From assembly GCF_964194155.1 (NCBI RefSeq), contig NC_135883.1, forward strand, positions 53,196,001-53,260,000: 64,000 nt of DNA, in the 5' to 3' direction. Source of the stretch: Cetorhinus maximus (Eukaryota). The translations under genes and the position numbers were made by a program. Within the stretch, counting starts at the first letter, position 1, and the number at the start of each line of letters is the position of its first letter. Positions 9,222-64,000 of the stretch are shown piece by piece. Under the pieces are notes generated by a model. That model made no database searches. It saw only the letters and a program-made list of their open reading frames with translations, and was not told the origin of the DNA.

Positions 9222-10250
9222 GAGAACATATAAGAAATAGGAACAGGAGTGGACCATTCGGCCCCTTGAGCCTGCTCCGCCATCCAATAAGATCATGGCT
9301 GATCTTCACGTGTTTCAATTTCCACATTCCCATCTAACCCTAATAACCTTTGATTCCCTTGCTTAACAAGAACCTAACTACCTCTGCCTTAAAAATATTC
9401 AATGACCCTGCTTCCACCACCTTCTGAGGCAGAGAATTCCAAAGTTGCACAACCTTCTGAGAGAAAAACATTTCTCCTCATCTCTGTCCTAAAAGGGCAA
9501 CCCCTAATTTTAAAACAGTGTCCCCTAGTTCTGGACTCCCCCACAAGAGGAACATCGTTTTGACGTCCACCTTGTCAAGGCCATTCAGGATCTTGTATAC
9601 TTCAATCAAATCACCCCTCACTCTTCTAAACTGCAGTGGAAACAAGCCCAGTCTGTTCAACCTTTCCTCATAAGACAACTCACTCATTCCAGGTATCAAT
9701 CTAGTGAACCTCCTTTGAACTGCCTTCAATGTGTTTACATCCTTCCTTAAATAAGGAGACCAAAACTGCACATAATATTCAAGGTGTGGTCTCACCGATG
9801 CCCTGTATAACTGAAGTATAACATCCTCACTTTTACGTTCAATCCCTCTCGTAATAAAGGTTAGCATTCCATTAGCCTTCTTAATTACTTGCTCTACCTG
9901 AATTCTAACTTTTTGTTACTCATGTACTAGAACATCTAGCTCCCTCCGCACCTCAGAATTATGCAACCATTCTCCATTTAAGTAATACTCTACTTTTTTG
10001 ATCTTCCTGCCAAAGTGAACAACTTCACATTTTCCCACATTAACCTCCATTTTCCAGATCTTTGCCCACTCAACCTATCTACATCCATCGGCAACCTCCT
10101 CTTGTCCTTTTCACAACATACTTTCCGCCCTATATTTGTGTCATCTGCAAATTTGTCTACCATGTCTTCACTTCCCTCATCTAAGTCATCGATGTAAATC
10201 TTAAAAAGTTGAGGCCCCAGTACGGACCCCTGTGGGACGCCACTCCCATC
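9222..10250 (-). mobile_element. CR1 LINE 3' ~1 kb
   Basis: SGVPQGSVLGPQLF.IYIDDLD..KFADDT and VRPHLEYYVQFWSPYLRKD, plus the CR1 3' UTR. Confidence 0.88.
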
Positions 10251-15310: not shown

Positions 15311-17550
15311 TCAAGTTGTAGATAACCATAACTTAGTTAGACTTAGGGTAATTATGGAAAAGGATAAGGTTGGAACAGGAATAAAAGTTCTATACTGGGG
15401 AAAGGCTACTTTTACTAAGATGAGATACGATTTGGCCCAAGTGGACTGGGAGCAGCTACTTGTAGATAAAACTGTGTCAGAGCAGTGGGAGGCATTCAAG
15501 GAGAAAACAGCGGAGTAAAGAGCAAATACGTTCCTGTAAAGACAAAGCAGGGGACCAAGTCCAGAGAACCCTACATGTCAAGGGGCATAAAGGTTAAGAT
15601 TAAAAAAAGAGAGAAGCTTACGGCAGATACTGAGGGCTCAATACAGCAGAGTCTCTAGAGGAGTATAAAAACTGCAGAGGGGAACTTAATAAGGAAATTA
15701 GGAAAGCTAAGAGAGTGCATGAGAAAGCATTGGTGGGTAGAGTAAAGGAAAACCCAAGGTTTTCTAAAAAATATATAAAGAGCAAGAGAATAACTAGGGA
15801 AAGAGTAGGGCCAATTAGGGACCATAGAGGTAATGTGTGTGTGGTCTCGGAAGACGTGGGTACAGTCCTAAATGAATACATTGCGTCAGTCTTCACAATA
15901 GAAAAGGACAACGTGGGTACAGACATCAGGGTGAAGGACTGTGAAATATTAGAGGAAATTAACATAGAGGGAAAGGAGGTACTAGTGAGTTTAGCAGCCT
16001 TAAAAGTGGATAAATCTGCAGGCCTGGATGAGATGTATCGCAGGCTGTTGAGGGAGACAAGGGAGCAAATATCAGGGGCCCTGGCAGTAATTTTCAAATC
16101 CTTTCTGGCCACAGGTGAGGTGCCAGAGGACTGGAGGACTGCTAACGTTGTCCCATTATTAAAAAAAGGAGGAAGGGATAGATCAGGAAATTACAGGCCA
16201 GTCAGTCTAACCTCGGTGGTGAAGAAGTTACTAGAAAGAATTCTGAGGGACAGAATATGCCTGCACTTGGAGAGACACGGATTAATCAGGGATAATCAGC
16301 ATGGATTTGTTAAGGGAAGGTCGTGTTTGACAAATTTGATCGATTTTTTTGAGGACATAACAATGAGTGTTGATGAGGGTAATGCATTTGATGTGGTCTA
16401 CATGGACTTTAGCAAGGCTTTTGATAAGGTCCCTCATGGCAGACTGGTCAAGAAAGTAAGAGCCCATGGGATTCAAGGCAAAGTGGCACATTGGATCCAA
16501 AATTGGCTGAGAGGCAGGAAGCAGTAGGTGATGGTAGGGGGATATTTCTGTGAATGGATGTCTGTTTCCAGTGGGGTTCTGCAGGGCTCAGTGCTGGTGT
16601 TGGTTTACATAAATGATTTATACTTAAACGTAGGGGGGCATGATCAAGAAGTTTGTGGATGACACAAAAATTGGTAGGGTGGTAAACAGTCAGGAGGATA
16701 GCCATAAACTACAGGAGGATATCAATGGACTGGTCAGGTGGGCAGAGCAGTGGCAAATGGAATTCAACCCAGAAAAGTGTGAGGTGGTTCACTTGGGGAG
16801 GGCCATCAAGGCAAGGGATTACACAATGAATGGTAGGACCCTGGAAAATACTGAAGATCAGAAGGACTTTGGTGTGCAAATCCACAGATCCCTGAGAGTA
16901 GCAGGGCAGGTAGAGAAGGTGGTTAAGAAGGCTTATTGGATACTTGCCTTTATTAGCTGAGGCATAAAATACAAGAGCAGAGAGGTTATGCTGGAACCAT
17001 ATAAAATGCTGGTTAGGCCACAACTGGAGTACTGCGTGCAGTTCTGGTCACCACATTATAGGGAGGATGTGATTGCACTGAAGAGGGTGCAGAGGAGATT
17101 TACCAGGATGCTGCCTGGGCTGGAGGGTATGAGCTATGAGGAAAGACTGGATAGGCTGGGGGGTTGTTTTCCTTGGAGCAGCGAAGATCGAGTGGGGACC
17201 TGATAGAGGTGTGGTAGAGATTATGAGGGCCACAGATAGGGTGGATAGGAAGGCATTTTTTCCATTAGTAGAGGGGTCGATAACCAGGGGCCATAGATTT
17301 AAGGTAAGAGGTAGAAGGCTAAGAGGGGAGCTGCGGAGACATTTTTTTACCCAGAGAGTGGTGGAAGTCTGGAACTCACTGCCTGAAAGGGTGGTTGAGT
17401 CAGAAACTCTCGTGGCATTTAAGAAGTATTTAGATATTCACTTGCATTGCCATAGCCTCCAGGGCTATGCACCAAGCACTGGAAAATGGGATTAGTGTAG
17501 TCAGATCTTTGTTGAACGGCATGGACAAGATGGGCTGAATAGCCTCCTTT
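15311..17550 (+). mobile_element. CR1 LINE, 3' ~2.2 kb of ORF2 with stops and frameshifts
   Basis: EVPEDWRTANVVPLLKKG.R..SGNYRPVSLTSVV...QHGFVKGRSCLTNLI.FFE...DVVYMDFSKAFDKVPH, KFVDDTK and LVRPQLEYCVQFWSP. Confidence 0.92.
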
Positions 17551-17709
17551 GATCTACTAGTGACATTTTCATATTTATGGCCTCTAGTTCTGAACTCTGA
17601 CAAAAGTAGAAACATCTTCTTAGCAATCACCTTCTACATTTTAAAGACCTCTATCAGGTTATCTTTCAATCTTCTCTTTTCTAGAGAAAAGAGCCCCAGC
17701 TTGTTCAAT

Positions 17710-19125
17710 GCTTCAGTGTCTGAGAAGTCACGAACGGTGCTGAACATTGTGCAATCATCAGCGGACATCCCTACTTCTGACCTTACGATTGAGGTGTACA
17801 AAATTATGAGGGGAATAGATAAAGTGGACAGGATAAAATTGTTTCCCTTGGTGGAGAATTCTAGAACCAGGGGACATAGATTCAAGATAAGTGGCAGAAG
17901 GTGTAGGGGGGACATGAGGAAGAACTTTTTTACACAGAGGGTAGTGGGTGTCTGGAATTCACTGCCCAAGTTGGTGGTAGAGGCAGAAACTCTAAACTCT
18001 TTTACAAGCACCTGGATCTGCACCTAAAGTGCTGTAAGCTGCAGGGCTATGGGCCGGGTGCAGGAAGATGGGATTAGAAAGGGCACCTGGGTGTCCTCGG
18101 GCTGGCATGGACAAGATGGGCCGAATGGCCTCCTTCTGTGCTGTAACTTTTCTATGGTTCTATGGAAGGAAGGTCATTGATGAAGCAGCTGAAGATGGCT
18201 GGGCCAAGGACACTACCCTGAGGAACTTCTGCAGTGATGCCCTGGAGCTGAGATGACGGACCTCCAACAACCACAACCATCTTCCTGTGTGCTAGGTAGG
18301 AATCCAACCAGTGGAGAGGTTTCCCCCAATTCCCATTGACTCCAGTTTTTGTTATGGCTCCTTGATTAAATGTGGCTTTGTTAAATGCGGCCTTGATGTC
18401 AAGGGTAGTCACTCTTACCTCACCTCGGGAGTTCAGCTCTTTTGTCCATGTTTGAACCAAGGCTGCAATAAGGTCAGGAGCTGAGTGGCCCTGGCGGAAC
18501 CCAAACTGGGTGTCAATGAGCAGTTAATTGTGAAACAAATGCCGCTTGATAGCACTGTTGATGACCCCTTCCATTACTTTACAGATGATCGAGAGTAGAC
18601 TGATGGTGCGGTAATTGGCCAGGTTGGATTTGTCCTGCTTTTTGTGTACAGGACATATCTGGGCAATTTTCCACGTAGTCGGTTAGATGCCAGTGTTGTA
18701 CTGGAACAGCTTGGCTAGGGGTGCAGCAAGTTCTGGAGCACAAGTCTTCAGTCCTATTGCCTGAATATTGTCAGGGCTCATAGTCTTTGCAGTATCCAGT
18801 GCCTTCAGCCATTTCTTGATATCACGTGGAGTGAATCGCATTGGTTGAATTATGGCATCTGTGATGTTGGGGACCTCCAGAGGAGACTGAGGTGGATCAT
18901 CCACTCCGCACTTCTGGCTGAGGATTGTAGCAAATGCTTCAGCCTTGTCTGTTGCATTGGTGTGTTGGGTTCCCCCATCATTGAGTTTGGGGATATTTGT
19001 GGAGCCTCCTCCTCTAGTGAGTTGTTTAATTGTCCACCACCATTCACGACTGGATGCAGCAGGACTGCAGAGCTTAGATCTGATCCATTGGTTGTGGGAC
19101 CACTTAGCTCTGTTGACATTGCTGA
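17710..19125 (-). mobile_element. Second LINE family (CR1/L2/Jockey-group RT) fragment, interrupted by CR1
   Basis: WTKELNSRGEVRVTTLDIKAAF...VPQGSVLGPAIFSCFINDLP and SSREWWWTIKQLT...KTCAPELAAPLAKLFQY. Confidence 0.8.
17788..18163 (+). mobile_element. Short CR1 3' end nested in the second LINE
   Basis: IEVYKIMRGIDKVDR...FFTQRVVGVWNSLP, with tail ttctatggttctatgg. Confidence 0.85.
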
Positions 19126-26712: not shown

Positions 26713-28384
26713 TTAGACTTCTAGTTGCTGCCCTGACATCTGCAGCAGGAGATAGCCAGTGCAATGGTTGGCCCTGTTGCCTCTGGCATGAGTCCTCTGG
26801 AGAGCCAAGTCCTTCGGGGCTCCGGCTTGCTTTGGCTGTTCTCCTGTGGGCCAGCTGCTCCCTCTGCGGTGACAGAGGACAAGGTTGAGAGGGTCACAGG
26901 CAAAGGTGACTCGGAGGGAGAGCACAGCCTCTGAGATTCCTGAGTGGATAAACCAGGGGTGTCCGGCTGCCGCTGAGGAGGGCCTGAGGGCCCTGTCCTG
27001 ACTCCTTGAGGGGAAGGAGCATCTGAGGGATGTCGAGGTGCCCCGTTTCCCTCTCGTGTTGACACTGTAGGAACTTACCCATGGCTCCCGCGATGGAGTG
27101 CAGGTCTGCACATATCATCACATTCTGCATGACATGGAGGCAGGGTCTCCATGGCGTCTGCCATTCTTCCGATGGAGACCTCCATACATGCATATGTGGG
27201 CACCACTTCATCAGACAGCAGGCTGACACACTCCTCCGACTCACGTGCCACACTGTTGAAGGCTTCCAATAGCTCTGCGTTATATTCCCCCACCTTCTGC
27301 TGACTCTCCAGGATGAGTTGGAAGGCCAAATCCAGAGGCTCGTCATCTGACTCGGATCCCACAGATGCCTCTTCCCCAGCAGTCCTCCGAGCGCCAGGGA
27401 GCTCGGCTGAACCTGTCTCCTCCTGGTGTGGACACATGTCCGTGCGGTGACCTCCAGATTGTGAACCCGAGTCTGCTGTAGATCTAGGTCCCTGTGTATC
27501 TCTGTGCTGGTGGAGGGTGAGGATAAGCACTGTTTCGGTCTTCCACACTGCTTATTTCTAGCTCTTCAATGGAGGAGTCCTCTTGGCTGGAGGTGAGGAT
27601 ATGGATGGAGCTGAGGGACTGGCTGGCTGAGGGTGTCGGTTGCTTGGCAGAGCTCCCTATGAACCGAAGTAGAGATAAGTAGTGCATGGCAGAGTCAAAA
27701 GAAGGAGATAGAGCACTCAGATTTACGTTGAGAGAGGGATGATGTGGTGCAGGGTCCTCATGTGGGTGTTCGCCGCCGACCTCACTGTCGCCGCAGGCAC
27801 ATTCCACATCCTCACCAGTCAGTGCGATGGCACACTCCTCAAAGTGAGTGAGGGACCTAATGTGGGCCACTCCACCCCTGGTCTTGGATCTCTCCCTGCT
27901 TATGTGAGCAGGCTTCTCCTGCATGAAAACAGATGGAGAGAGTGTGAGCAGGACACATGGCACTGCATGGAATGTTTGTGTGGTGAGCGGAGCCATGGAT
28001 AAGATGAGGACCCGAGCTGCAGAGGATATGAGCCTGATGGAGATTTGAGGGCGTGTGTGAGAGTTAGTAGCGTTGTCCCTTGAGGTGTGAGATCCCTGTG
28101 GATGTGTGATGGGTTTGTGAGTGTGTGAGTTGAGAGCGATCAGAAGAGTGACTTACCCTGGCGGAATGGAGGAGATCATTCATTCTCTTGTGCTACAGGG
28201 TGGCTGTGCTCTTTTGTAGGGCCTTGGCATGGATCACCGTTGCCACTGCCTCCCAAGCCAGATTGATGATGTTGCTGCCCATCCTGTGGCTATAGCAGGG
28301 TAGAGGACATCACAGCGTCCAAATGGTGCTCAAGGGATGCGTCATTAAACCTGGGGCTTCAGTCTTGTTGCCTTTCGGAGCCAT
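26713..28384 (-). pseudogene. Three-exon Harbinger Myb/SANT (NAIF1/MSANTD-like) DNA-binding protein pseudogene
   Basis: Exon 1 (28384-28157): MAPKG..APRFNDASLE..AWEAVA...KRMNDLLHSAR|gtaagt, with frameshifts and a stop. Exon 2 from 27918: cag|EKPAHISRERSKTRGG. Exon 3 from ~27657: Ser/acidic and coiled-coil region. Confidence 0.8.
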
Positions 28385-28707: not shown

Positions 28708-28828
28708 GGTCACAGACATGAAACATTAACTCTGTTTCTCTCTTCACAGATGCTGCCAGGCCTGCTGAGTATTTCCAGCACTTTGTGTTTTTATTTCAGA
28801 TTTCCAGCATCTGCAATATTGCTTTTGC
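28708..28828 (+). mobile_element. Older Penelope-type short terminal repeat (decayed hammerhead region)
   Basis: ggtcacagacatgaaacattaactctgtttctctcttcacagatgctgccaggcctgctgagtatttccagca...tttccagcatctgca. Confidence 0.65.
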
Positions 28829-29289
28829 TCTTTCATTGCCAAAAGTAGTTGGGAGCGATCTAATCTTTATCTGGATTGTCCTCCAATTTTTAACTCAAGC
28901 CAGAGAAATTACAAATGTGTTCTCAACTAATGAACAGGCCTAGCTTTTATCAAGTAATTAAAATTTGCTCATCATATGTTTTGATATATGCATATCTAAG
29001 GTGCTCATCCCAAACAGGAAATGCTTGCAATAAGGTATCACTCAGGTCAGCCAGAAGACCTGCATTAAAGGAAGTTTAGTTTGAGGATGAAAGGTGCTGA
29101 AAATGTTCTTGTTAAATGAGAGGCTCGGGGAGAGATTAAAGACATCCAATGATTTCAGATTGACAGAATACCCTTGATAGAAAGGGAGGTTACTGGGTTT
29201 TTTAGGCCCAAAATGTCCTTATGCTACAATGCTGGTGGTTATACCACTTGCCTGGCCTAGACATTACTGTGGAGGCTAGTGAAACATCT

Positions 29290-30853: not shown

Positions 30854-33650
30854 ATGGCCACTCGGGGTGAGAGAGAGGCAGCTACAGAACAGGAGCATGA
30901 GCAGGAGGAGGGGGGCAGGCTGCAGGAGAGGCCAGCGGAGGGCCGCTGTGCCCCCCGATTTTCTGATGCCTGCCTTGCTGTCCTCCTCCAAGAGGTGTCC
31001 AGCCATCGGGATATATTGTATCCGGATGATGGCCCCCCCGTCACCAGGCAGGCGTGGGAGGAGGTTGGTGACGCTGTAAGCCCCCATGACGATGTGCGGC
31101 GCACAGGCACACAGTGCCACAAGAGATTCAATGATTTGCTGCGCTCTGGAAGGGTGAGTACCATGTCAGTCTTGGCCATTTGACCCAAAAGGTAACCTTA
31201 GTCTTTGAGCACCTCCATGTCTTAGTGTTGTTACTGCATTGGGCATTTGGCGCACGCGGGGTGGGCAAATGGGTAGTGATCATGCTTACATCAGCCTTAG
31301 TGGTTGAGGAGAAGATGGGTTCTCCCCATAGCATATGTTGGTGTTTGTCGCATTTGAGTAGTCTGGGGGCAACCTGCAGGGGAGGCCGCTAAACACGTAC
31401 TCAGAACTCCAACACATGTCATGTTGATGGTGATGAGACGGTGGAAGGGGAGCCTCAAGCTATCGTGGCCAAGTGCCATCTGCTGGCATTGGCACCTTAC
31501 CTAGTTGCGCCTCCTTGCCATGGGAGCTAAGACCCGTGTGCTATTCAAAGTGATGGACGCTGAATGTGTCCAAGGTGGCCGTTGGGGGAGGGGGTTGGGA
31601 GCAGCCGTACTATCTTCTGGGGACTGATCACCAGTAGTGTGGACAGGAGCCGCTGGAGGCCTCAGATGGGCCCCTGTGGTTGGGGTGCGGTGTGCGCGTG
31701 CAGAGTACATGAGCGATCAGCCCCAATAAATCCTCTTCTCTGTTCTGCAGGCAAAAAGTAAACACAATCAGCGGGAGCTGGAGGTGGGCACACCCTGCTC
31801 CAGTGACTCACGACCTTCGAGGAGCAGGCCATGGAGCTGGGGAGGAGGCAGGAGGCCAGGGCAGCCAGGGTGGCAGGTGGCAGCAAGGCTGGGGTCCAGC
31901 GGCCGGGTATTTGAGGTCCACAGTCCCATCCACTCTGTCTGCCCACCATCCAAACCACTGATGGCTGCTGCAATCGGTGATGCTGAAACACTGCTCATTC
32001 ACAGACTGAGACACTCTGACATGTGGGTCATACACAAAGGTCCCTCGTCCCCTTGAGAAATCGCGTCCCCACCACCTTCCAAAGTCACCTTATCCCATTT
32101 CTGACCACTATCCCCATGGTCTAACATACCATGGCATCGCTGCTGCACATCCAAAGACTTATTGCATCTTGGGGGGGTTTGAACCTCCACCACCCTTTCA
32201 GCCACTGTGTCCCACATTACTCTGTCCAAAAGGTCCTCAGCACCTCAGCTGCGAACCTCATGGCATTCAACTTAAATAAATGCCACCGCGTTAGTCATCC
32301 CTGCACCAAGGGGAAATGTTGCCTTCTGCCCACCCGGTCTATGCCCCTCCTAACGGTACGAAGGTCAATAATGTGACCTGTCAATCTTCTGTGATCCACG
32401 ACAAATGTCACAAGTGTTTGCGATGTTTCCTCAGCCCTGCAACTCTCCAGGCCAGCATGTATCCATGTCAGGAACCTCTGCACTCTCCCCACTCCAATGG
32501 CCATAACATGCCATGTGGCATTCCGGAGGCCATCTGACCAGCCTGTCTGTATGCACGTCTAATGTTTGAGCCTCCTCTTGACTCTTTTCCAAGCGACTAA
32601 TGTTCATCCCCGTAAGGTCTTGAAGGGTGAGCAACTTATGAGGCTGGGGGGGAAAGGGATGAAAGGTGTTACTAACTGAACGCCAACTGATGCAGTGTCC
32701 TTGTTGTTAATTTCAGCATCACCACTACATGGCCATGCCCAAAGACACCGCAGCCCCCCCTCCACACCTGGTGCCCAAGACGTGCAACTTGCGGCACATC
32801 ATTTCAGCCAGCCAGGCACCAGCGCAGACACAAACACCTCGGTGGGGAATTTACCGTCGGCTAGTGTCCCGGGTCACAGTGGAGAGGGCACTTCACAATT
32901 GCTGGATGAGATGGTAGGGACAGAGAGTGGCGATGGTGCCAGCAGCCAGAGGGCTGCAGGGACCCGGCACATGCTGAGTCCGGCAGTGATGATGTGCCTC
33001 TGGAGCTGTCACCAATGCAGCAGCTGCAGGACAAGCGGCAGGAATCGCGTTTGCATCTGGCATGGTTGCATGAGGGTGTACTTCAGCTGGTCTCTGTGGT
33101 GGAGGAAACCAGGCAGAGTGTCAGTGATGGCATGAACCTCAGGGCAGAGCTTCAGGCTTCCTCCACTGAGAGATTGGCGACTCTCATGGAGAGGGGGTTC
33201 GATCGGATGGAGAATCTTCTGATTGGGTTACGCTCTGACCTGCAAGCCCTCACAGCGGTAATGGCTACAGGTGGTCCTTCCCAATGTGGGAGATGTTGTG
33301 GGCACCAAGCGTCGGCACTTGGTGCCCATGCATCTGGGGTGATCAGGGAGGTCCATTGGGACCTCACGTCGGCGCAGCAGCAGCCTGTTGTCGCTGCGAG
33401 CTCCTTTCAGGGCGCTCCGGAGGAGGGCAGCAGCTCCTCCGCCACTTTGCCAGTGACTGTTGCATCCATTGAGGCTGCAAAAACTGGGGAGGTACCAGTT
33501 CCATCACAGGCTCCACGGTCCAGAGGACGCCCGCCAAGGTCATCAACGCCAACAGGACAGCAGAGTCAGCAGGCTGTCTCACAAGCCACTCCGAGCGATG
33601 GGGCGGCACCAAGACGAGGCACCCGCAAACGTAAGCATAAGGCATGTTAG
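30854..33650 (+). pseudogene. Three-exon Harbinger Myb/SANT protein gene, lightly decayed
   Basis: Exon 1 (30854-31153) is open for 100 codons (APRFSDACLAVLLQEV..RDILYP...RQAWEEV...RTGTQCHKRFNDLLRSGR|gtgagt). Exon 2 from 31751 (AKSKHNQRE..GGG) has a frameshift and stop. Exon 3 (32717-33650) ends RRGTRKRKHKAC, an NLS-like motif. Confidence 0.85.
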
Positions 33651-35000: not shown

Positions 35001-35096
35001 CTGCCGAAGGGTCATGAGGATTCGAAACATCAACTGTTTTCTTCTCCACTGATGCTGCCAGACCTGCTGAGTTTTTCCAGGTAATTCTGTTTTTGT
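35001..35096 (+). mobile_element. Penelope-type short element with hammerhead-like motif
   Basis: CTGCCGA-A-GGGTC-atgag-GATTC-GAAAC-ATC-AACTG followed by gatgctgccagacctgctgagtttttccag. Confidence 0.75.
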
Positions 35097-36330
35097 GTTA
35101 AAAATAGGGAAACCTTGCTAAAACTATACAAGGCACTAGTTAGGCCACACCTAGAATACTGTGAACAATTTTGTTCCCCTTATCTAAGGAAAGATATACT
35201 GGCATTGGCGTCAGTCCAGAGAAGGTCCATTAGGTTGATCCTGAGTATGGAGGGATTTTCTTATGAGGAGAGGTTGAGTAGGTTGGGCCTGTACTCATTG
35301 CAGTTTAGAAGAATAAGAGGAGACCTTATTGAAACATATGAACTTTCTCCCCGTCGGGCGGCCCGGTCAGGAGTGGACGCGGATCCGATCACCTGCGTGC
35401 TGTCATTTTATGTGGGCGGGCCAATTAAGGCCCACCCAGCATGACGCGCACCCAGAAGCGCTCAGCGCTACCTGTGTGCCCGGGGGGAGGAGGGAGAGTG
35501 CGAAAGAGCGCAGAAATTTCCCTGATGCACGGAGCTGCCTCAGGGAGATTAATTTCGTCATGAAAAATGGAATTTAAAAAATTCAGATATGTCCCCTCAT
35601 GTGACAGTGTCACATGAGCTGGGACATGTTTATGAATTGTAATAAAAGCTTTTATTTAAGCTATAAACCCTTCATGAAACCTCACCCCACCTGTGGATGA
35701 GGTTCCATGAAAAATGCGAAGGCTGCCTGGGCCCTTCTCCTGCCCACCAACCTTAAGGTTGGATGGGCTGCTCTGACAACTACTTTAATTAGATGATTAA
35801 CAGCCTTAACAAGCCTTTGACAGTTTGGCGGGCATGCAGCCAACTCCAGTGCGTGACCGCCGACCAGAAGGTCAGAATGATGTGCGGTGACATCAGGTCA
35901 GACACCCGACATCACCACGCGTCATTTTATGCATCGGCGTGCGAAACCCGCCCCTGCACGCCGAGCAGAAGACTCTGGCCATAAGATTCTTAGGGGGCTT
36001 AACAGGGTAGATGCTGAGAGGTTGCTTCCCCTTGTGGGTGAGTCTAGGACCAGAGGGCATAATTTCTGAGTTAGGGGTCGCCCATTTAAGACAGAAATGA
36101 GGAGGAATTTCTTCTCTCAGAGGGTAGTGAATCTTTGGAATTCTTTAGCTCAGAGGGCTGTAGATGTTGGGTCATTAAGTATATTCAAGGCTGAGATAGA
36201 GATTTTTAATCAGTAAGGGAATCAAGCGTTATGGGGAAAAGGCAGGAAAGTGGGGCTGAGGATTGTCAGGTCAGCCATGATCTCATTGAATGGCAGAGCA
36301 GACTCGATGGGCCGAATGGCCTACACCTTC
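35097..36330 (+). mobile_element. CR1 3' end, split by a MITE
   Basis: LLKLYKALVRPHLEYC...RGDLIETY, then the MITE, then KILRGLNRVDAERL... and the CR1 3' UTR. Confidence 0.85.
35340..35980. mobile_element. Harbinger MITE
   Basis: Homologous to 40547-41229. The right end is agaagactctggcc|ata. The first bases of the left TIR are missing. Confidence 0.8.
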
Positions 36331-47900: not shown

Positions 47901-49294
47901 GAACAGAGGTTTGTTAGGACATTGGGGGGGAGAAATTGGCTAACTGCTAAAAAGGGGCACAGAGATTTGAGATGGGCTGTGTCTGTTCATTGCATTGGAG
48001 GCAGCACAGTAAATTGCTGCTATCAGCTGCTTTACATGGTTGCTGCAATCAGCCGGCACTACCATGCTCTTCATTAGCTGTATGCATCAGCAGAGTGGCC
48101 AGAGTTAGCACTAGCTAAAGGCAGCTGGCATCTCATAAATGGGAGGTGCACTGTGGCTGCAAGAAGTGATGGCAGTCATTTAAAAAGATAACCTGTGCTG
48201 TGATACTTTGAGGAAAAGCTGAATACATGAGAGAGCATGCACCAACGTTTACAAACCCTGCACAGGTGGTCTTGGTACAAGACATGAAGAATAGGAGAGT
48301 TTATCTGTATCGGCAGGAGGCCAACTAGGTAGATGCTCAGGTGGCAGTGGGAACAAATAGCAGCTGAAGTAAATGATAGGAATGTTGTTCCAAGAACATG
48401 ATGAAGTGCAGGAAGAAGTTGAATGACCTTGCACAAGCTGGCAAGGTGAGTGAATTTATCTTAAATGTTATGTCCTGCCAAATACACCACTAGCATCATC
48501 CAATGGTCAATGGCCACAGCCCCATCATCCACCCATCAACAACCTCTACCAATCAGAGCTCATCCTTTCAATTCATTTGGTTTACTTCACTCTCAGAGAT
48601 ATAACACTGTTGCAAGCCTCACATTCACAACTCACAGTTTACACATACTGGCAGCTCTTCCATCGTGATAGCCACAACATACTGCATAACACTCACTGAC
48701 ACACTTCCCTCTTATTTGCAGGAGAAGATGGTGCCTAACAGTATGGGACACCACTGAACTGGAGGAGGACAAGCGGAGGTTCATGTTTTAACATCCATAA
48801 ATGAGACAATTCTGACCATCATGTTAAAAGGCATGACTGAGGCTGTGGCCACTGGCAACGCTGAAGCGATGAGTGTACCACATACCTAATCCTCCTTCTC
48901 TCATCCAACATCTCCCTCATTCCGTTGTCTCTTCTGACTGAGAAACTGAAGAGGGTATAAGTATGACATTTTTACTCTCCCACCTCCCCAACCCAACCCT
49001 TGTCTCTTTTATCATTTCAGGTATCCAAGACTGGAACCTGCCCAAACAAAGGAGGAAGACGAAGAACAAAGTGAAGATGAACAGCACTGGTCATTTGCCC
49101 TTATACTTGCAGCTACTAACTCAGAGACTGATACTGCACATATTAGCCAGGGAACGGGGAAAGGAGAGTGCAGGTGTCAGCTCATTGAAGGGAGAGGTTG
49201 CACAATAATTCTGCTGCAAAGGACTCAGATGTGTACTTCAATGGGCCATTCTACAGAAGGAGCTTGGTGCTTTGGAAAGCCTGCCAGAAAGCCT

Positions 49295-49497
49295 AAGGTA
49301 AAAGCAAAAAACTGCAGATGCTGGAAATCCAAAACAAAAATAAAAATACCTGGAAAAACTCAACAGGTCTGGCAGCATCTGCGGAGAGGAACACAGTTAA
49401 CGCTTCGAGTCCATATGACTCTTCAACAGAACTGTGTTCCTCTCCGCAGATGCTGCCAGATCTGCTGAGTTTTTCCAGGTATTTTTATTTTTATTTT
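49295..49497 (-). mobile_element. Penelope-type short element with inverted (fold-back) structure and 14-bp TSD
   Basis: Inverted arms 49331-49398 and 49430-49497 surround a hammerhead-like core on the minus strand. TSD ctgccagaaagcct at 49281-49294 and 49498-49511. Confidence 0.85.
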
Positions 49498-50656
49498 CTG
49501 CCAGAAAGCCTGCTTAATGTTAAAGAGCATGAAGGAATGCAGCACCAACTCAGTACAAAGCTTTGCGTAAAGCATAGAGCTCATCCTTTCCTACAGGAAA
49601 GGGTGGTCACCTCTATCTGCAGGCCTGTGGAACCCAGCATTGTGCAGTGTCTAAAGGTCAATATCATAGTTTTTTTGCAGCAGCTGCTGCTTCCATTGAA
49701 GATCTGTGAGCTGCAGTGGATGCACAGATTGCTGCCCTCATGGTTCTGGATGTCAGTGTTCAAAGGGGTTTCCATGGCCTCATAGCAGTCTCCAACAGAT
49801 GACTAGGATTGCAGAGGCACTACCCCGGGAGAGGCTGTGACTCCATGGTGCATGAACCTACCATCCTCTGTCAAGGAGCCAGCATTTCTATTCTCACCCC
49901 TAGCACTCCACTAGTGCCTTTGCTGTTGTCAGGCAGCCAAGACTGCTGCAGCTCAGGTTGCATGGTGCAGTCTGCAGTCAGCAGTCAGGCCTCCTAGGCC
50001 CAGAGCTGCTCGAGGTCAGCTGCCAGGGTCATCTCCAGGGTCATCTACAGTGTCCTTCATTAAAGCTCAGCTGCCTTATACCACCTACTACTGGGCAGCT
50101 ACTGGAGAAACACCTCACAGGAGCATTAGGACAGGCAAAGGCACATATGATGCAGGCACTAGGGAATTGCACAAGAGCGATTAGTTTAAATTTGTATGCA
50201 TGATGAATAACTTTGGGTTGAAATATGGATTTTCTGATGATTTCTATTTTTGGCATTGACAGAAAGAGAAAATTGAGAAGATCAATGATAGAGGAAAGGT
50301 AAGGAGTGTGGGAGAATTGGTGAATGAGGAGTTATGGTTGAGGTTATTGCTGTCATTCAGTAATTACTTCATTATGTAGTGCCCATTTTGCAGCCTCTTC
50401 TTCTTCCTGTTCTTCCACTTTCTACTGCACTTCCTCTTGCTCCACACCCTTGCTCCTCTTTAGCTTCTCATCTGATAGGTGGTGGCAGTGATTGTCCCTA
50501 CATAATGAAGAAGTGGTCCAGTGTGCAGAAAACTACCTTACATCCTGATGGCCACTCAGCTGAGTCCAGCAGACTCCTCCAGCGCAGTCCAGGTAGTGGA
50601 AATATTGCTTGAGGACACCAATGGTGTTCCTTGTGGCAGCATGGGTCTAGTATCAT

Positions 50657-53152
50657 AGCCACGATTTTCCACTTCAGTTTGTGGCAGGCGTCATAGCAGG
50701 CGAGAGCGGAAAATATCGGGGGAGCAAAGATCGGTTTCACAACATCGTAAAACCAGTTTGCAATCGTCCGCTCCGCCCATCAATGGCAGGCCGCAGTTCC
50801 CGCCACCACATGTCGGGAACCTAATTTCAATACTTTAGCATCTAATTGTAAGCCCTACTCACTGGCATCATCCCCTCTCTCAGGATCATGAGCTCTTTTA
50901 CAACGGTGCATAAGCGACATCCAGCTGGCGAACTGCACTTTGCTCGGGACTTCAAGGTCTGTTTGCCTACCTTGCTTCGGGCAGCAATCGCAGCCAACAG
51001 CACCAGGCTTCGCAGGCAGCACCACATCACTTTCAGGGGAGGGCTCACAGGCAGGTCTCCACCTACTAGACCAGTGGCTGCAAGGCTAGGGCTTACTTGG
51101 GGAAGGGGCTTTTCCCAGGGTGTGTGTGGAGGCACAAGTTCATCTGTGCAAGTGGGCTCAAGATGGTGAGGGCTGAGGGGGTAGTCTCCAGAGGAGATGA
51201 GGCCAGATGGATATGTGAGGGTGTGTATGAGAGAGTGAGTGGTGATGTCCCTTGAGCTGGCAGTGAGTGAGATGCCAGTGAATTTGTGATGGGTTTGAGA
51301 GTTTTTTTTTATTCTTTCACAGGATGTGTGAGACACTGGCTAGGCCAGCATTTATTGTCCATCCCTAATTGCCCTCAAGAAGGTAGTGTGCTGCCTTCTT
51401 GAACCACTGCAGTCTGTGTGGTGTAGGTACACCCAAAATGCTGTTCGGGAGGGAGTTCCAGGATTTTGATCCAGTGACAGTGAAGGAATGGTGATATAAT
51501 TCCAAGTCAGGATGGTGAGTGGCTTGGAGGGGAACTTCCAGGTGGTGGTGTTCCCATGTGTCTGCTGCCCTTGTTGTTCCAGAAGGTAGTGATCATGGGT
51601 TTGGAAGGTGCTGTCTAAGGAGGCTTGGTGAATTGCTGCAGTGCATTTTGTAGATAGTATACACTGCTGCTCATGTGCATTGGTAGTGGAGGGAGTGAAT
51701 GTTTGTAGATGGGGTGTCAATCAAGTGGGCTGCTTTGTCTTGGATGGTGTCAAGCTTCTTGAATGATGTTGGAGCTGGTGATATTGGATCTGCACTTGTC
51801 CAGGCAAGTGGAGAGTATTCCGTCACATGCAATCGGTTAGCGCGCGGTACTTATACTCCTGGCTTGTGCCTTGTAGACGGTAGACAGGTTTTGGGGAGTA
51901 AGGAGGTGAATTATTTGCCACAAGATTCCTAGCCTCTGGCCTGCTCTTATAGCCATAGTATTTATATGGTTAGTCCAGTTCAGTTTCTGGCCAATGGGAT
52001 TCAGCGATTGTAATGCCATTCAATGTCAAGGGGCGATGGTTAGATTCTTTCTTGTTGGAGATGGTCATTGCATGACACTTGTGTGGCACGAATGTTACAT
52101 GCCACTTGTCAGCCCAAGTCTGGATACTCTCGAGGTCTTGCTGCATTTGGATATGGACTGCTTCAGTATCTGAGGAATCACAAATGGTGAACATTATGCA
52201 ATCATTAGCAAACATCCACACTTCTGACGTTATGATGGAAGGAAGGTCATTGATGAAGCAGCTGAAGATGGTTGGGCCTAGGACACTACCCTGAGGAACT
52301 CCTGCAGTGATGTCCTGGAACTGAGATGATTGACCTCCAACAACCACAGCCATCTTCCTTTGTGCTGGGTATGACTCCAACCAGCGGAGAGATTTCCCCC
52401 TGATTCCCATTGACCCTAGTTTTGCTAGGGCTCCTTGATGCCACACTTGGTAAAATGCTGCCTTGATGTCAAGGGCAATCACTTCCATCTCACCTCTGGA
52501 GTTCAGCTCTTTTGTCCAAGTTTGAACCAAGGCTGCAATGGGATCAGGAGCCAAGTGGCGAAACCCAAACTGAGAGTCAGTGAGCAGCTACTGCTAAGCA
52601 AGTGCTGCTTGATAGAATTGTTGATGACCCCTTCCACAACTTCACTGAGAGCTTAGAGTGATGAGATGGTTGCCTTACCCTGGCAGCACGGATGAGATCA
52701 TTCATCCTTTTTCTGCACTGGATGGCCAACCTCTTTGGTGCAGTGTTGGCACTGACACCGCCTCCCAAGCTGGAGTGGTGAGATTTCTGGGTCTCCTGTG
52801 GCCACAGCAGTGTGGAGGGCATCATGATGGGCCTCCAAAAGGCATTCCAGGGACAGATCACTGAACTCTCCTTGGCTTCCTGGGCCATGTCTTCACCGGA
52901 GCAATCCTGGGCTGCAAGCATTGAGAACCGTGTGCACAGCTGCAGTTTAGATATGACACCCGTAGTGAGGAAATACTGAGGTAACAGTGTGCTGGGCGAT
53001 TCAGAGGCTGCCCGCCAGCGATTCGGTATGTATCCTGTGGCTGCATGATTAATGAGGTGGGAAGCAGATGATACACCCTTTCGGCTGGCGGGAAAAATAT
53101 CTTTCTTCACGCCTGCCACTGCATTTAGTGCAATTCAGAGAAAATTCCAGCC
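50657..53152 (-). mobile_element. Non-autonomous Harbinger related to 24959-28658, with Myb exon 1 only
   Basis: Ends agccacgattttcc and gaaaattccagcc. Subterminal sequence is homologous to 25030-25150 and 28540-28658. Exon 52888-52679 ends QCRKRMNDLIRAAR|gtaagg. Confidence 0.7.
51302..52640 (-). mobile_element. Second-family LINE 3' 1.3 kb, nested in Harbinger
   Basis: ALDIKAAFYQVWHQGALAKL...AGVPQGSVLGPTIFSCFINDLP..FANDC, with an A-rich tail. Confidence 0.85.
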
Positions 53153-53737
53153 TATGTCTGCTGTAAATGTGAGAGTGGGTTCTGGACCAGAGTCTTGAGC
53201 CATGTCATAAACTTTGTCATCCAGCAATCAGCCTTTGGCTTGCTACGTAGTGTCAAATACGGGTGTCACACAAGGTTGCAGCAGAATGAAGTAACCATGA
53301 CGACTGTCGTATTGAAGGTGTGCTGCCTGTGAACGCACACCCAGTGCACAGTGAGGACGACCCTTTCAGTTCATTAAAATGTTCCAGTTGACATGAGGAA
53401 CATGCAAGGTAGTGTGTGTGCAACCACATCCTGTACCATGGGGAAGCCTGCAATCTATGTAAACCTTTGAGCTTGCTCCACCTGTTTGTCTCTGGTGAAA
53501 AAGAGAATTAGATGAAACTTTCTGTGTATGGAGAGTCTCAGTGACCTCCTTTATGTAGCAGTGCGCTGCAAACTGTGAGGCGGTGCTTACATCTCAGCTG
53601 CAACCTGGAAGGAGCTGGGGGTTTAAACATTTAATGGCCACAGTCAGTTTGAAAGCCACAGGCAATGCAATCCTTATGCTGGTTTAAGGTTGCAAAGCAG
53701 ACAGCAGATTTCAGCCACAGATTCTTCAGTGAAGTAA

Positions 53738-53831
53738 AGATGAAGGGTCATACGGACTTGAAACGTCAACTGTATCCCTCTCCGCAGATGCTGTCAGACC
53801 TGCTGAGTTTTTCCAGGTGTTTTTGTTTTTG
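53738..53831 (+). mobile_element. Penelope-type short element with hammerhead-like motif
   Basis: gatga-a-GGGTC-atacg-GACTT-GAAAC-GTC-AACTG...gatgctgtcagacctgctgagtttttccag. Confidence 0.75.
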
Positions 53832-54954
53832 ATCAAAAGGTTGCAAGCACATCTGGATCATTATTTTCGAGCATTAATCTAAAATCCAGCTGCTACAGAG
53901 CCCAATTTCTCCCCCAGAATGTCCTACCAGAAACAGTGATGGAAGTAGGACCCCCAAATCTTTAAAGAAAAGTGGATAAATAATTGGAAAATAAAAAAGT
54001 TAATAGTTTATGGGAATATTAGGTCCAAGGTCACCTGTTCATTGCAAGCATGCTACACTTACCACATACCATGTCTCAAATTACTCATAGATTTGAACCC
54101 AAAATGTTATTTTTTTGATAGAAAGAAAGGAACAGGTGACTTTGGACCTGTGGTTCTCAAAGCTCTCCACTACTGGAGTTTTCCTTACCTCATATCTAGG
54201 TCTGTTTTAGACCAATTGATAAGTTCATTACAATGATTATTTAGCAACTTCATTATCTTTATATCATGTAGTACTGTACAGTAAGGTAGAAGGTGAGCTC
54301 GATTGACCTTGGTCTTTTCTTGTCTAGCAATTCCTATGTTCCAATGATCTGGTTTCAGTCACAACCTTTGAATAAAAATCTGACTGATGTTGAGTGAAAC
54401 ATTCAATTTTGTCCAATATTTGTTATTAAAAACACTGTGAAAGGCTAGAGGAATAAATTAGTACCAAAGCAAAGGTTCCTTAATATTACAATTTAACCTT
54501 GCCCGCAAAAGAATCCCCTCACTGCACCTAATGACATTTTCATTGTTCACTCTCAAGTCTCTGACCTTCTCAGAATAAGACTGCTGAACCAAAGCCATTT
54601 TATCCTGAATTCACGGCAGGCTTCTGATATGCAATGTCCACAGGGACCGAGGTTGAGACTGAATCAACCCCTCAGTAATACACGTAAAAAAAAGTGAAAA
54701 CACAAGGGAGTAGCAATAGTTTTTATGTCAACAAACCTGTTTCTATTTCTGCAAACTGAGCAGCAAAGGTACAAAGGAATGTTCATCAAGTGCCTTATAC
54801 CATAATGCTAGAAGTTAGATTTGAATAGTTCAGATGTCCCTGGAAATTGTTTCATTCCTATGAAATTATCACTTCAAGGTACATAGAAAATTAAGTCTAT
54901 GGTGCTCATGTTAATGTGCATTGAAGACTCAGAATAGATCGATGCAGCACAAAA

Positions 54955-56660
54955 TTAAGCATCCATGAGGAGCAGCAGAATTGTATTCAACCACAATCTG
55001 TAACCTCATTGCCCGACTCTACTATGAGCCCAATGCAAAAGACAAGGCTGAAGCACTTGCAACCACCTTCAGCCAGAAGTGCCAAGTGGATGCTCCAACT
55101 CGCCCTCCTCCTCGAGGTCCCCAACATCATAAATGCCAGTCTTCACAGAATTCAATTCACTCCAGCTGATATCAAGAAATGACTGAAGGTATTGAGTGCA
55201 GCAAAAACTATGGACCCTGGCAACATCACAGCTGAATAACTGAAGACTTATGCTCTACAACTGGCTGTGACTTACCCAAGCTATTCCAGTACAGCTACAA
55301 CACTGGCATCTAACTAGCAATATGGAAAAGCATCTCAAAAAACAGGACAAATCCAATCTGACCAATTACCGCCCCATCAGTCTACTTTCAAACATCTGCA
55401 AAGTGATGGAAGGTGTCATTGACAGTGCTATCTAATGGCACTTACTCAGCAATAACAAGCTCGCTGATGCTCAGTTTGGGTTCTGTCAGGGCCATTCAGC
55501 TCCAGATCTCATTACAGCCTTGGTCCGAACATGGACAAAAGAGCTGAATGAGGTAAGAAGGACTTCCCTTGACATCAAGACAGCATTTGATTGAACCCCA
55601 GTAAAATTTAATTCAATGGCAATTAGAGGGAAAGCTCTCCATTGGTTAGAGTAATAACCAGTACAAAGGAAGGTGGTTGTACACATTGGCGGTCATTCAT
55701 CTCAGTCCTGGGGCATTGCTGCAGGAGTTTCTCTGGCCCAACCATCTTCAGCTGCTTATTCAATGACTTTCCTTCCATTATAAAGTTAGAAGTTAAGATA
55801 TTTGTTGATGATTGCACAATGATCAGCACCATTTGCGACTCCTCAGATACCGAAGCAGTCCGTGTCCATATGCAGCAAGACCTGGACTACATTCAGGTTA
55901 GGGCCAGTAAGTGACAAGTAACATTTGAACCACTGAAGTGCCAAGCAATGACCATCTCCAACAAGAGAGAATCTAATCATTTCCCCTTGGCATTACCATC
56001 GCTGAATCCCCCCACTATCAACACCCTGGAGGCTACCGTTGACAAGAAACAGAACTGGACCAGCCATACTGTAGCTACAAGAGCAGGTCAGGGGCTCTGA
56101 ATCCTGCAGTGAATAACTCACCTCTGGACTCCCCAAAGCCTGTCCACCATCTACAAGGCACAAGTCAGGAGTGTGATGGAATACTCTCCATTTGACTGGA
56201 TGAGTACAGCTCAAGCAACAATCATGAAGCTCAACACCATCCAGGACAAAGCAGTCTCCTTAATCAGCACCTCATCCACCACATTTATTCCTTTCACCAC
56301 CAGTGCACAATGGCAGCAGCGTGCACCATCTACAAGCTGCACTGCAGCAACTTGCCAAGCTTCCTTCGACACCTTTCAAACCCGTGACCTCTACCACCTA
56401 GAAGGACAAGGGCAGAATGGGAAAACCAGCACCTGCAAGTTCCCCTCCAAGCCACACAACTCTATCGTCGTTCCTTCTGTGTCACTGGGTCAAAATCCTG
56501 GAACTCCTTCCTTAACAGCACTGTGGTGTACTGACGCCACACAGGTTGCTGTGGTTCAAGAAGGTGGCTCACCGCTACCTTCTCAGAGGTAATCAAGGAT
56601 GGGCAACAAACGCTGACCTTGCCAGCAACTCTCACATCCCAAGAACAAATAATAAAAAAA
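54955..56660 (+). mobile_element. Second-family LINE fragment, decayed
   Basis: NAKDKAEALATTFSQKCQVD, NYRPISL, GPTIFSCLFND..IFVDDCT and MEYSPFDW, plus the 3' tail. Confidence 0.85.
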
Positions 56661-59941: not shown

Positions 59942-60328
59942 CTAAAGCAGGAGCGAGAGCCCTGGTAGGGTCATGATGTGGTGGCCTTCTAGTGGGAAAT
60001 AGGACCATTATTAAAGGGTTTTTCAGCTTGAGCTCAGCCACTGCAACACATGATTTTCTGCAACCTTCCCATAGCCACCTGTGTTGCCTCTGAGTATCTT
60101 TCCCAAGAATAAAAGTCTATAAGCAAAGACTTTACATTCAAATCTGCACAGAGAAAATTGAAGGAAAAAGGGAAGGAAAGGAAGAATGGCTTGTATTTAT
60201 ATAGCACCTTTCATGGCCACATTACAGACGATTAAATACCTTTGAAGTTCAGCCACTGTTATAACGTAGGGAACATAGCAGTTTCTAGACCTGCAATGTG
60301 AAAATGACCAGGTCATCAGTTTTTAAGT

Positions 60329-60432
60329 TTTCAGTTCTGTTGAAGGGTCATGAGGACTCAAAACATGAACTGTGCTCTCCTCCACCGATGCTGCCAGACC
60401 TGCTGAGTTTTTCCAGGTATTTCTGTTTCTGT
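60329..60432 (+). mobile_element. Penelope-type short element with hammerhead-like motif, 14-bp TSD
   Basis: CAGTT-CTGTTGA-A-GGGTC-atgag-GACTC-AAAAC-ATG-AACTG. TSD atcagtttttaagt at 60315-60328 and 60433-60446. Confidence 0.85.
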
Positions 60433-60546
60433 ATCAGTTTTTAAGTGTTGGTTGAGAAATTAACATTGGCCATGAAAACAGGTAGGCCTCCCCTGCTCTT
60501 CTTTGAAATAGTGCCATGGGATTTTTTTACGTCCACCTGTGGGGGC

Positions 60547-62979: not shown

Positions 62980-64000
62980 TGGGCCTGTTTGGAGGCCAAA
63001 ATGGCATCTGATATGCATGTGCACACTTCTGCTGCAAGTCACACTGAACATCATCTTGGTGAAGGCCTGAGCATGCTGACAGCTAACATATACTGGAAGT
63101 ACCACAGAGTGGGTGGATTAAAACATCAATTAGCGTACAATACTGTTTTGACACAGTGGTGTCATTTTGGAGATCAACATTCCAGCTGACACAGAGATAT
63201 AAACAAAAAGCTAAAAGCTTTTCTGCCGAAGGGTCATGAAGACTCGAAACGTTAACTGATTTCTTCTCCACCGATGCTGCCAGACCTGCTGAGTTTTTCC
63301 AGGTAATTCTGTTTTTATTCCAGCTGACACCCTGTTTTAACCACACACCACATAAATGCACATTAAGCAGCAGAAAGGACCCACCACCAGTGCTATTTAA
63401 AGGGACCATCAACTATTTACAGGTTAATTGCTAGTTGATTTCTTCTGGATGTTACTTTGATTCTACAAGTGTTTGGTCCTTTCCATTTGTTTGGCTCTTT
63501 CAAGTTGCCTAAGTCTACAGCGAGTGGTGTGGCAGGTACTGAAGGAATGCTGCATACTGTACAATCTCAGCACCATGAGGGAGAAAGCATGCCATCTGAG
63601 CAGCTGAGGAGCAGCAACAGGATGAAGCAGTAGATGAGGAAAAGGAAGGGAGGAGTCAACCTCTAAAGCTCATAATGCTGACACAATTAAAGCAGAAACA
63701 GAAACAATTCCCCCACAGCCCCACACCTCATCTCCTATCTGTCACTGACCATCATAGCACTTGCTTGGCCACAATGCCAAAATAAAAACCAACACAAAAT
63801 AAATGTTCCAATCCAAATGCATAAATTAAGTAAGTTTGGCCTTACATGACAGTGAACTTCCACTGCAGCACTCAGGTGTTGGGTGGCTGCTGCTTGTGCT
63901 GCATTGGAAGTTGTGACATTGCCACCAGACACTGCATGGTCCACAAGCAGGTGAATGGACTTGGCCACCACTTTCATTCTAGAAAGGATAGGCTCCAAGC
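62980..64000. mobile_element. Old Harbinger remnant, same family as 38290-42250, running off the window
   Basis: Shared subterminal text (aaaatggcatc..., cattttggagatcaa..ttccagct, tatttaaaggga.catcaa..ttacaggtt). Minus-strand Myb last-exon remnant QAAATQHLSAAVE matches QAAATQYLSAAME at ~39700. Confidence 0.65.
63193..63316 (+). mobile_element. Penelope-type short element with hammerhead-like motif, 14-bp TSD
   Basis: CTGCCGA-A-GGGTC-atgaa-GACTC-GAAAC-GTT-AACTG. TSD attccagctgacac at 63179-63192 and 63317-63330. Confidence 0.85.

What the first reader, a model, noticed from the sequence alone, without database searches (positions are those of the whole stretch)
63193..63316. Family of ~100-200 bp non-coding mobile elements built around a minimal, non-canonical hammerhead ribozyme motif
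Seen: copies at 35001, 49394-49434 (minus strand), 53738, 60332 and 63223 fit the consensus CAGTT-CTGNNGA-A-G(G/A)GTC-loop-GACTC-GAAAC-GTY-AACTG, and 28708 is a more decayed relative. The 5' CAGTT survives only in the 49.4-kb and 60.3-kb copies. The layout is helix I (CAGTT/AACTG), core, one extra A, a 5-bp helix II, GAAA, a loopless palindromic helix III (ACGT) and an NUH site. Helix II pairing is kept while its loop varies (atgag, atgaa, atacg, atatg). Known: Penelope-like retroelements and retrozymes carry minimal type-I hammerheads that cleave as dimers. Unusual: core position A6 is C in two copies and T in two others, which suggests subfamily-level core variants rather than random decay. 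The 5' ends of the copies fall at or just upstream of the motif. Inference: a non-autonomous, ribozyme-bearing short retroelement mobilised by a Penelope RT/GIY-YIG enzyme.
Basis: partly seen in the sequence, partly recalled or inferred. Interest (0 to 1): 0.7.

Follow-up and report, generated by a model that had tools for sequence, protein, structure and literature searches.

The report
Penelope transposon stubs, altered hammerhead core
These short repeats are cut-off ends of a very abundant, recently active Penelope-type jumping gene, not a separate small element; its small hammerhead RNA motif has replaced a normally fixed A with U and then likely C while keeping its fold, so it is likely a slowed self-cutter and a natural test of whether these elements need to cut their RNA.

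Summary
The motif is real at all six window sites, but none is a complete hammerhead. The copies are not a separate non-autonomous family. They are 5'-truncated ends (pLTRs) of an autonomous Neptune-type Penelope element: 3.3-kb copies with a 917-aa RT/GIY-YIG frame and the motif in both pLTRs exist in this genome. Of 42,130 exact genome matches, core position 6 is U in 22,789, A in 9,883, C in 8,916 and G in 542. A6 marks older subfamilies, C6 the youngest intact ones; the other core letters are fixed, and helix II gained a compensatory U-A to C-G pair within the C6 branch. Stub 5' ends pile up at the front edge of helix I (25 of 118), likely the RNA start. A modest local excess of ends at the cut site (about 2.4-2.7 times two controls) hints at some cleavage; activity is untested. 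Minimal Penelope hammerheads and a phage A6C variant are published; a lineage-fixed U6/C6 in a retrotransposon was not found in print. This scan has noted the same thing before, in this genome and in others.

The parts
63179..63192 (.). left target-site duplication (14 bp)
   Evidence: identical to 63317-63330
63193..63219 (-). inverted 27-nt piece of the element's tail region (second 3' end site)
   Evidence: matches the full-length element about 119-145 nt downstream of C3 with 1 mismatch
63221..63256 (+). minimal hammerhead motif, C6C7 subfamily: core 63223-63229, extra A 63230, helix II 63231-63235/63241-63245, GAAA 63246-63249, predicted cut after 63253; only 2 bp of helix I left
63254..63316 (+). 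pLTR segment from the predicted cut site to the first 3' end site
   Evidence: 95% identical to the pLTR of full-length copy L126
63317..63330 (.). right target-site duplication
60329..60432 (+). U6U7 stub with helix I, damaged core (G12A, G16.2A); 14-bp TSD 60315-60328 / 60433-60446
53739..53831 (+). A6U7 stub starting at G5; 10-bp flanking repeat 53686-53695 / 53837-53846 with 43 nt of unassigned filler
49295..49497 (.). head-to-head palindromic insert: minus arm 49434-49295 (U6U7 hammerhead plus tail), plus arm 49430-49497 starting at the predicted cut site; the arms share the 5-nt helix I sequence; 14-bp TSD 49281-49294 / 49498-49511
35001..35099 (+). C6C7 stub starting at C3; no clear TSD
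28714..28833 (+). old decayed stub with tail, core lost
   Evidence: 79% identity to L126 pLTR

Best explanation
The window copies are short 5'-truncated ends of an autonomous Neptune-type Penelope retrotransposon whose hammerhead motif carries U or C in place of A6 in most copies, and the motif likely still folds and likely cuts only slowly or with protein help. How it works: (shown) the full element is pLTR - 917-aa RT/linker/GIY-YIG frame - pLTR, 3.3 kb, with the motif about 180 nt before the start codon; copies end 3' at two sites about 35-40 nt apart and are often joined head-to-head inside a 14-bp target duplication. (Inferred, by analogy with the anole element, PMC11167929) the protein nicks both target strands and starts reverse transcription at two sites inside the RNA just downstream of the motif. 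(Inferred) the RNA begins at the front edge of helix I, at an initiator-like sequence; when copying starts at the 5' pLTR of a mostly uncut RNA it runs off this end after about 100-135 nt, which gives the stubs. (Shown) position 6 is A in older, U in middle and C in the youngest subfamilies, while the other core letters are fixed and helix II pairing is kept; the order A to U to C is inferred from copy ages. (Inferred) selection still keeps the fold, and fast cleavage is not needed to make copies.
For: Full-length elements: 3 of 20 fetched loci hold the whole 917-aa frame, 7 of 20 hold the motif in both pLTRs 3.30-3.32 kb apart with 0-3 differences in 101 nt, and 20 of 20 have C6 (the 20 were chosen by likeness to a C6 element's ORF, so this shows that C6 elements are intact and young, not that no A6 element is). 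Pfam RVT_1 and GIY-YIG hits. Position 6 genome-wide: U 22,789, A 9,883, C 8,916, G 542 of 42,130; decay of A would favour G. Sample anchored outside the ribozyme, 86 of 90 copies fitted without gaps: position 6 T35/C24/A24/G3; C3 82, U4 85, G5 81, G8 85, A9 86, G12 76 (CpG), A13 86, A14 86, A15.1 83, U16.1 86; 415 of 430 helix II cells paired. With inner helix II free, 16 of the first 100 rows (16 of 26 non-standard) show the two-sided U-A to C-G change, all with C6 (counted by eye); a U-G intermediate is in L143. Ages, median divergence from own majority: A6A7 0.065, A6U7 0.055-0.065, U6 0.030-0.051, C6U7 0.014-0.043, C6C7 0.020-0.029; tree built without the ribozyme is a ladder with the label clustered (9 changes, shuffled mean 22.8, 0 of 200 as low). 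5' ends: 25 of 118 lie 31-40 nt upstream of the cut site (2.8% per nt against 0.15-0.9% in neighbouring bins). 3' ends: 32 of 50 at the first site, 18 of 50 at the second. Cut-site starts in the C6C7 subfamily: 46 matches (28 of 30 viewed are true ends) against 17 and 11 at two control positions, 2.4-2.7-fold after flank correction.
Against: No cleavage was measured. A6C cuts poorly in Mg2+ in the two published cases (PMC3088659, PMC7151607, passages read). Only 4 of 118 sampled ends lie within 2 nt of the cut site, and the cut-site excess rests on two control positions, is open to A-rich and helix I microhomology (21 of the 30 viewed were flagged as joined to an inverted partner), and is by my rough estimate no higher than the rate of ends inside helix II. 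The compensatory change is one inherited event, and helix I shows no clean two-sided change (1 of 6 pairs, weak). The downstream pLTR segment is about as conserved as the ribozyme (88,117 exact 30-mers), so fixed letters may serve a promoter or protein binding. The RNA start is inferred from DNA ends only; RNA contigs showed no start or intron. The tree has one A6A7 row and no outgroup; two U6 groups of similar age are separated by a long branch, so one origin of U6 is not shown. With 100 nt of downstream sequence, helices I and II are both predicted in only 2 of 8 natural copies folded.
Confidence: 0.72

Rival explanations
1. The ribozyme is catalytically dead in U6/C6 subfamilies; its sequence and helix II are kept because they overlap the internal promoter or the protein's binding site.
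For: In the anole element catalytic mutants did not affect insertion in vitro and uncut RNA was the main template (PMC11167929, parts 1-2 of 4 read). D. virilis Penelope has an internal promoter just inside the transcript (PMC2377424, passages). Most stubs keep the uncut motif. A6C is strongly slowed in Mg2+ (PMC7151607).
Against: All ten other core letters, including G8, G12 and the NUH site, stay fixed and only pyrimidines occur at 17, which a DNA promoter would not obviously need; two-sided helix II change after A6 loss; local excess of cut-site starts in C6C7 copies.
Confidence: 0.3
2. One reading: a separate non-autonomous short retroelement (retrozyme- or MITE-like) copied from short master copies.
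For: Short stubs with target-site duplications are common (25 of 118 share nearly the same 5' end); non-autonomous PLE derivatives are described in vertebrates (bioRxiv 10.64898/2026.07.22.740005, parts 1-2 of 5 read).
Against: Stubs occur in A6, U6 and C6 groups (10, 13 and 2 of the 25) and match the autonomous line, share no 5' flank, grade into long copies (54 of 118 over 100 nt), and palindrome junctions differ from insert to insert. No tandem array in the window.
Confidence: 0.07
3. The 5'-end pile-up marks a splice acceptor or an RT stall at helix I rather than the transcription start.
For: A pyrimidine tract and AG lie directly before the peak; in D. virilis the intron ends at helix I (PMC4209133).
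Against: Ends spread over 31-40 rather than one base and carry no shared upstream exon; a stall would be expected on entering a structure (3' side), not on leaving it (my reasoning).
Confidence: 0.15
4. C6/U6 are post-insertion mutations of a plain CUGANGA consensus.
For: A6 copies exist (9,883).
Against: U6 outnumbers A6, G6 is 1.3%, both pLTRs of young elements have C6, and position 6 follows the tree.
Confidence: 0.01

Closest known systems
Minimal type I hammerheads (min-HHR) in pLTRs of metazoan Penelope-like elements (Cervera and de la Pena 2014, PMC4209133; parts 1-2 of 4 read, one supplement searched, one not available)
   Same: Short helix I, extra base between A9 and helix II, G10.1-C11.1, no loop III with palindromic 15.2/16.2, location in both pLTRs, thousands of solo copies, opposite-strand pairs.
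   Different: The core variant named there is U3-A8; no U6 or C6 family appears in the parts read. Here A6 is a minority state and absent from the youngest elements seen. Helix II is 5 bp (7-8 bp in Schistosoma).
Neptune-clade EN+ Penelope-like elements (Craig et al. 2021, PMC8557442; passages read)
   Same: RT, CX2-5CxxC linker (here C-X4-C-X2-C), C-terminal GIY-YIG, frequent 5' truncation, partial tandems, inverted upstream copy, one-sided 30-40-bp tail.
   Different: Clade not tested by a protein tree; the linker is shared with Nematis. Clear 14-bp TSDs here.
Poseidon from Anolis carolinensis (Frangieh et al. 2024, PMC11167929; parts 1-2 of 4 read)
   Same: Two 3' end sites downstream of the hammerhead that define the tail; uncut RNA as main template.
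   Different: There the start codon lies inside the hammerhead; here the long frame starts about 180 nt downstream and both end sites lie before it. Different clade.
Natural A6C hammerhead of phage Bcep176 (PMC3088659, PMC7151607; passages read)
   Same: Same substitution at position 6.
   Different: A single phage sequence, slow in Mg2+ and better in Mn2+; here fixed in thousands of copies of an animal retrotransposon, with U6 more common still.
Animal non-LTR retrozymes (bioRxiv 10.64898/2026.07.22.740005, parts 1-2 of 5 read; PMC7229834, search listing only)
   Same: Short non-coding, hammerhead-bearing, PLE-related.
   Different: Defined as tandem repeats of complete hammerhead units; the window copies are single or head-to-head stubs of the autonomous element.

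Membership tests
EN+ Penelope-like element | Single ORF with RT and C-terminal GIY-YIG endonuclease | tested here: met
   917-aa frame in L125, L126, L131; Pfam RVT_1 E 4e-7 and GIY-YIG E 3e-4, the latter just under its cut-off (on partial copies L080, L075)
EN+ Penelope-like element | pLTRs, 5' truncation, inverted upstream copy, 30-40-nt tail | tested here: met
Neptune clade | CX2-5CxxC motif between RT and EN | tested here: met
   C-X4-C-X2-C before the GIY-YIG domain
Neptune clade | RT groups with Neptune rather than Nematis or Poseidon in a tree | not tested
   no reference proteins were fetched
PLE minimal hammerhead | Helix I, helix II with G10.1-C11.1, extra base after A9, palindromic 15.2/16.2, NUH site | tested here: met
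   helix II 415 of 430 cells paired
PLE minimal hammerhead | Core CUGANGA with A6 | tested here: not met
   A6 in 9,883 of 42,130; met only by older subfamilies
PLE minimal hammerhead | Self-cleavage (as dimer or protein-assisted) | not testable with these tools
   only indirect: local excess of cut-site starts
Rfam hammerhead models | Score at or near gathering threshold | tested here: not met
   no hammerhead match
Non-LTR retrozyme | Tandem repeats of units with complete hammerheads | tested here: not met
   window copies are dispersed, none tandem; genome-wide arrays not searched
Non-autonomous PLE family | Own fixed boundaries and own lineage apart from the autonomous element | tested here: not met
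   stubs in all subfamilies, no shared 5' flank, variable junctions

The most novel reading that the evidence does not exclude
The U6/C6 motif is a working ribozyme in the animal: the retrotransposon protein (or dimer formation) makes up for loss of the 'invariant' A6, the element tuned its cleavage down so that uncut RNA serves as template, and the genome records both RNA 5' ends (transcription start and cut site) in its stubs.
Probability: 0.3. Interest if true: 0.7.

Novelty: new variant of a known kind. Interest (0 to 1): 0.48.

Why it matters
Why Penelope-like elements keep a hammerhead is open: it is nearly universal in canonical clades yet was dispensable for insertion in vitro. Here a line of successive source elements lost a core letter known to slow cleavage, kept every other core letter and helix II, and went on to make tens of thousands of copies, with intact young elements available. 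A6, U6 and C6 versions in one genetic background make the question directly testable. Searches that demand CUGANGA miss more than three quarters of this family's motifs, so hammerhead counts in such genomes are too low. The window copies themselves are inert stubs.

Tried and rejected
DNA search of the genome with the 94-nt copy found nothing because common words are skipped; patterns were used instead. Rfam: only hairpin artefacts (mir-3158 etc.) on the 49.4-kb palindrome, no hammerhead. No ORF piece of the element lies in the window (blastn and tblastn). Public RNA runs were held as contigs only; four laid on the pLTR-ORF junction showed cover but no start site and no GT-AG joint among the joints shown, 11 more not shown; they cannot show expression, strand or ends. 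Lunse et al. 2017 (about dimer cleavage of PLE hammerheads) is not held, so whether it lists position-6 variants is unknown; one supplement of PMC4209133 could not be searched and the other's alignment was only term-searched, so a U6/C6 row there is not excluded. Literature searches for a prior report: searches found none. Monomer folding suggests U6U7 can pair with the A14-G16.2 stretch; not pursued. Rows dropped: 1 duplicate of 119 in the 5'-end sample, 4 of 90 with indels, 7 of 63 intact or ambiguous loci, L049 in the profile.

Full report
Observation. The motif is present at all sites named. The copies share about 100 nt: the hammerhead layout and about 65 nt downstream. Each is damaged in helix I or the core, so none is a complete ribozyme. 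Three inserts have 14-bp target-site duplications. The finding's own insert (63193-63316) is a 27-nt inverted piece of the element's tail region joined to a direct copy that begins two bases before C3. The 49.4-kb insert is a head-to-head palindrome whose plus arm begins at the predicted cut site and shares the 5-nt helix I sequence with the other arm. Rfam has no matching hammerhead model. The window lies in a 3.99-Gb genome; that it is a shark is my recollection of such repeats and the wording of earlier scan notes, not a result of a call.

What the copies are. The 34-place pattern has 42,130 exact matches, the reversed control none; a 30-mer downstream has 88,117; a profile of the downstream part found 60 hits in 600 kb of arbitrarily chosen sequence. 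Many copies continue 5' into a 3' UTR and an ORF. Searching with the 5' part of one such ORF gave young elements: of 20 fetched, 3 hold a whole 917-aa frame with DKG, RT core, a C-X4-C-X2-C linker and GIY-YIG domain, and 7 hold the motif in both pLTRs about 3.3 kb apart; the pLTR pairs differ at 0-3 of 101 nt and the three frames are 97-98% identical. By the features in PMC8557442 (passages) this is a Neptune-type Penelope-like element; the clade was not tested by tree. The window's C6 copies are 95% identical to its pLTR. In 118 copies picked by an anchor outside the ribozyme (100 consecutive matches on contig C1 with their neighbours, plus the random stretches), 54 extend more than 100 nt 5', and short stubs occur in every subfamily with unrelated flanks. 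The non-autonomous reading is therefore not supported.

Position 6. Genome-wide: U 22,789, A 9,883, C 8,916, G 542 by subtraction. These counts fix helix II and so leave out a large C6 subfamily: freeing the inner pairs raises the total to 54,428, and 16 of the first 100 rows are one two-sided change, U-A to C-G, all with C6; 10 others are scattered single changes (by eye). Freeing the seven core letters, the first 100 rows keep C3 97, U4 97, G5 98, G8 98, A9 99 times, while position 6 is T 66, C 19, A 13, G 2 (by eye). The sample anchored outside the motif agrees: position 6 T35/C24/A24/G3 of 86, other core letters 81-86 of 86 except the CpG G12 (76). On a 50-row alignment helix II is paired in all cells, 2 of 5 pairs with a two-sided change; helix I is 77% paired with no clean covariation; slid controls are far lower (most rows were chosen by a pattern that fixes helix II, so this part is partly circular). 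A tree on flanks alone (53 rows with at least 560 nt; one A6A7 row; midpoint root) is a ladder A6A7, A6U7, U6U7, C6U7, C6C7 with shrinking end branches, and divergence within groups falls from about 0.06 (A6) to 0.02-0.03 (C6C7). The order A to U to C is thus likely; two U6 groups overlap in age, so one origin of U6 is not shown.

How the stubs arise. 3' ends fall in two clusters about 35-40 nt apart (32 and 18 of 50), the tail that PMC11167929 traced to two internal start sites of reverse transcription. 5' ends pile up 31-40 nt upstream of the cut site, from C3 to just before helix I (25 of 118; 2.8% per nt; nominal p 2e-11 against uniform over 3-100); 12 of the 25 have an inverted partner. 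The A of the helix I 5' strand sits in a pyrimidine-pyrimidine-A initiator-like context (consensus recalled), and two full-length copies (L119, L100/L134) also begin there. I infer that the RNA starts here and that copying begun at the 5' pLTR runs off this end. D. virilis Penelope has an internal promoter just inside its transcript (PMC2377424, passages). A splice acceptor or RT stall is less likely but not excluded; RNA contigs could not decide.

Does it still cut? Published A6C cases are slow in Mg2+ (PMC3088659, PMC7151607). Most templates were uncut: 4 of 118 ends are within 2 nt of the cut site. Prompted by an earlier scan note, I counted C6C7 copies that start exactly there: 46 matches, 28 of 30 viewed being true ends, against 17 and 11 true ends at positions -3 and +4; 2.4-2.7-fold after correcting for flank letters, nominal p 3e-5 to 4e-4. 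Microhomology with A-rich partners and with helix I inflates this, and only two controls were possible, so it is a hint. Together with the fixed catalytic letters and the late helix II change, I put slow or protein-assisted cleavage at somewhat better than even among the functional readings, and a dead motif kept for promoter or binding at about 0.3.

Known and new. The motif class, its place in pLTRs, solo copies, inverted pairs and tail are published (PMC4209133, PMC8557442, PMC11167929). A lineage-fixed U6/C6 core in a retrotransposon was not found in five searches, but one key paper and one supplement could not be seen. The scan itself has noted the variant and the 5'-end pile-up many times (46 notes on hammerhead and Penelope in this genome, and others in other genomes); these are unchecked notes and are not counted as support. 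Verdict: new variant of a known kind, interest 0.48.

Noticed in passing
L125, L126, L127-L130, L134 (G000 C10, C2, C6, C5, C18): Young full-length Penelope elements with near-identical pLTR pairs; three whole 917-aa frames (L125, L126, L131), suitable for biochemical work like the anole element.
   Followed up: partly
pLTR, just upstream of helix I and about 17 nt downstream of the cut site (e.g. window 63259-63275): Two pyrimidine-tract-plus-AG sites that look like splice acceptors flank the hammerhead; the second is followed by an ATG in many subfamilies. No spliced joint was seen in four RNA contig sets.
   Followed up: partly
C6C7 subfamilies, e.g. L127, L129: Helix I can form 6 bp in the youngest subfamilies against 4 in their C6U7/U6U7 predecessors, and this version folds most stably.
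   Followed up: partly
U6U7 subfamilies, e.g. L010: U6 lets the core pair with the A14-G16.2 stretch in the predicted monomer fold, a possible off state.
   Followed up: no
window 53696-53738: 43 nt of unassigned filler between the left flanking repeat and the A6 stub.
   Followed up: no
window 8035-8658, 15634-16524, 51973-52587 and repeats at 3012-10037, 16943-18960, 51302-56659: Fragments of other repeats, several with LINE-type RT frames by eye; the window is repeat-rich and no host exon was identified.
   Followed up: no
window 32910-33647 (+) and 26897-27565 (-): Open frames of 246 and 223 aa in G+C-rich stretches; not identified.
   Followed up: no
window 7003-7082: A small hairpin (weak Rfam miRNA-type match, E=1); likely a palindromic repeat.
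   Followed up: no
random stretches L145-L204: Older, more diverged pLTR families with A6 cores and different helix II sequences are also present.
   Followed up: no
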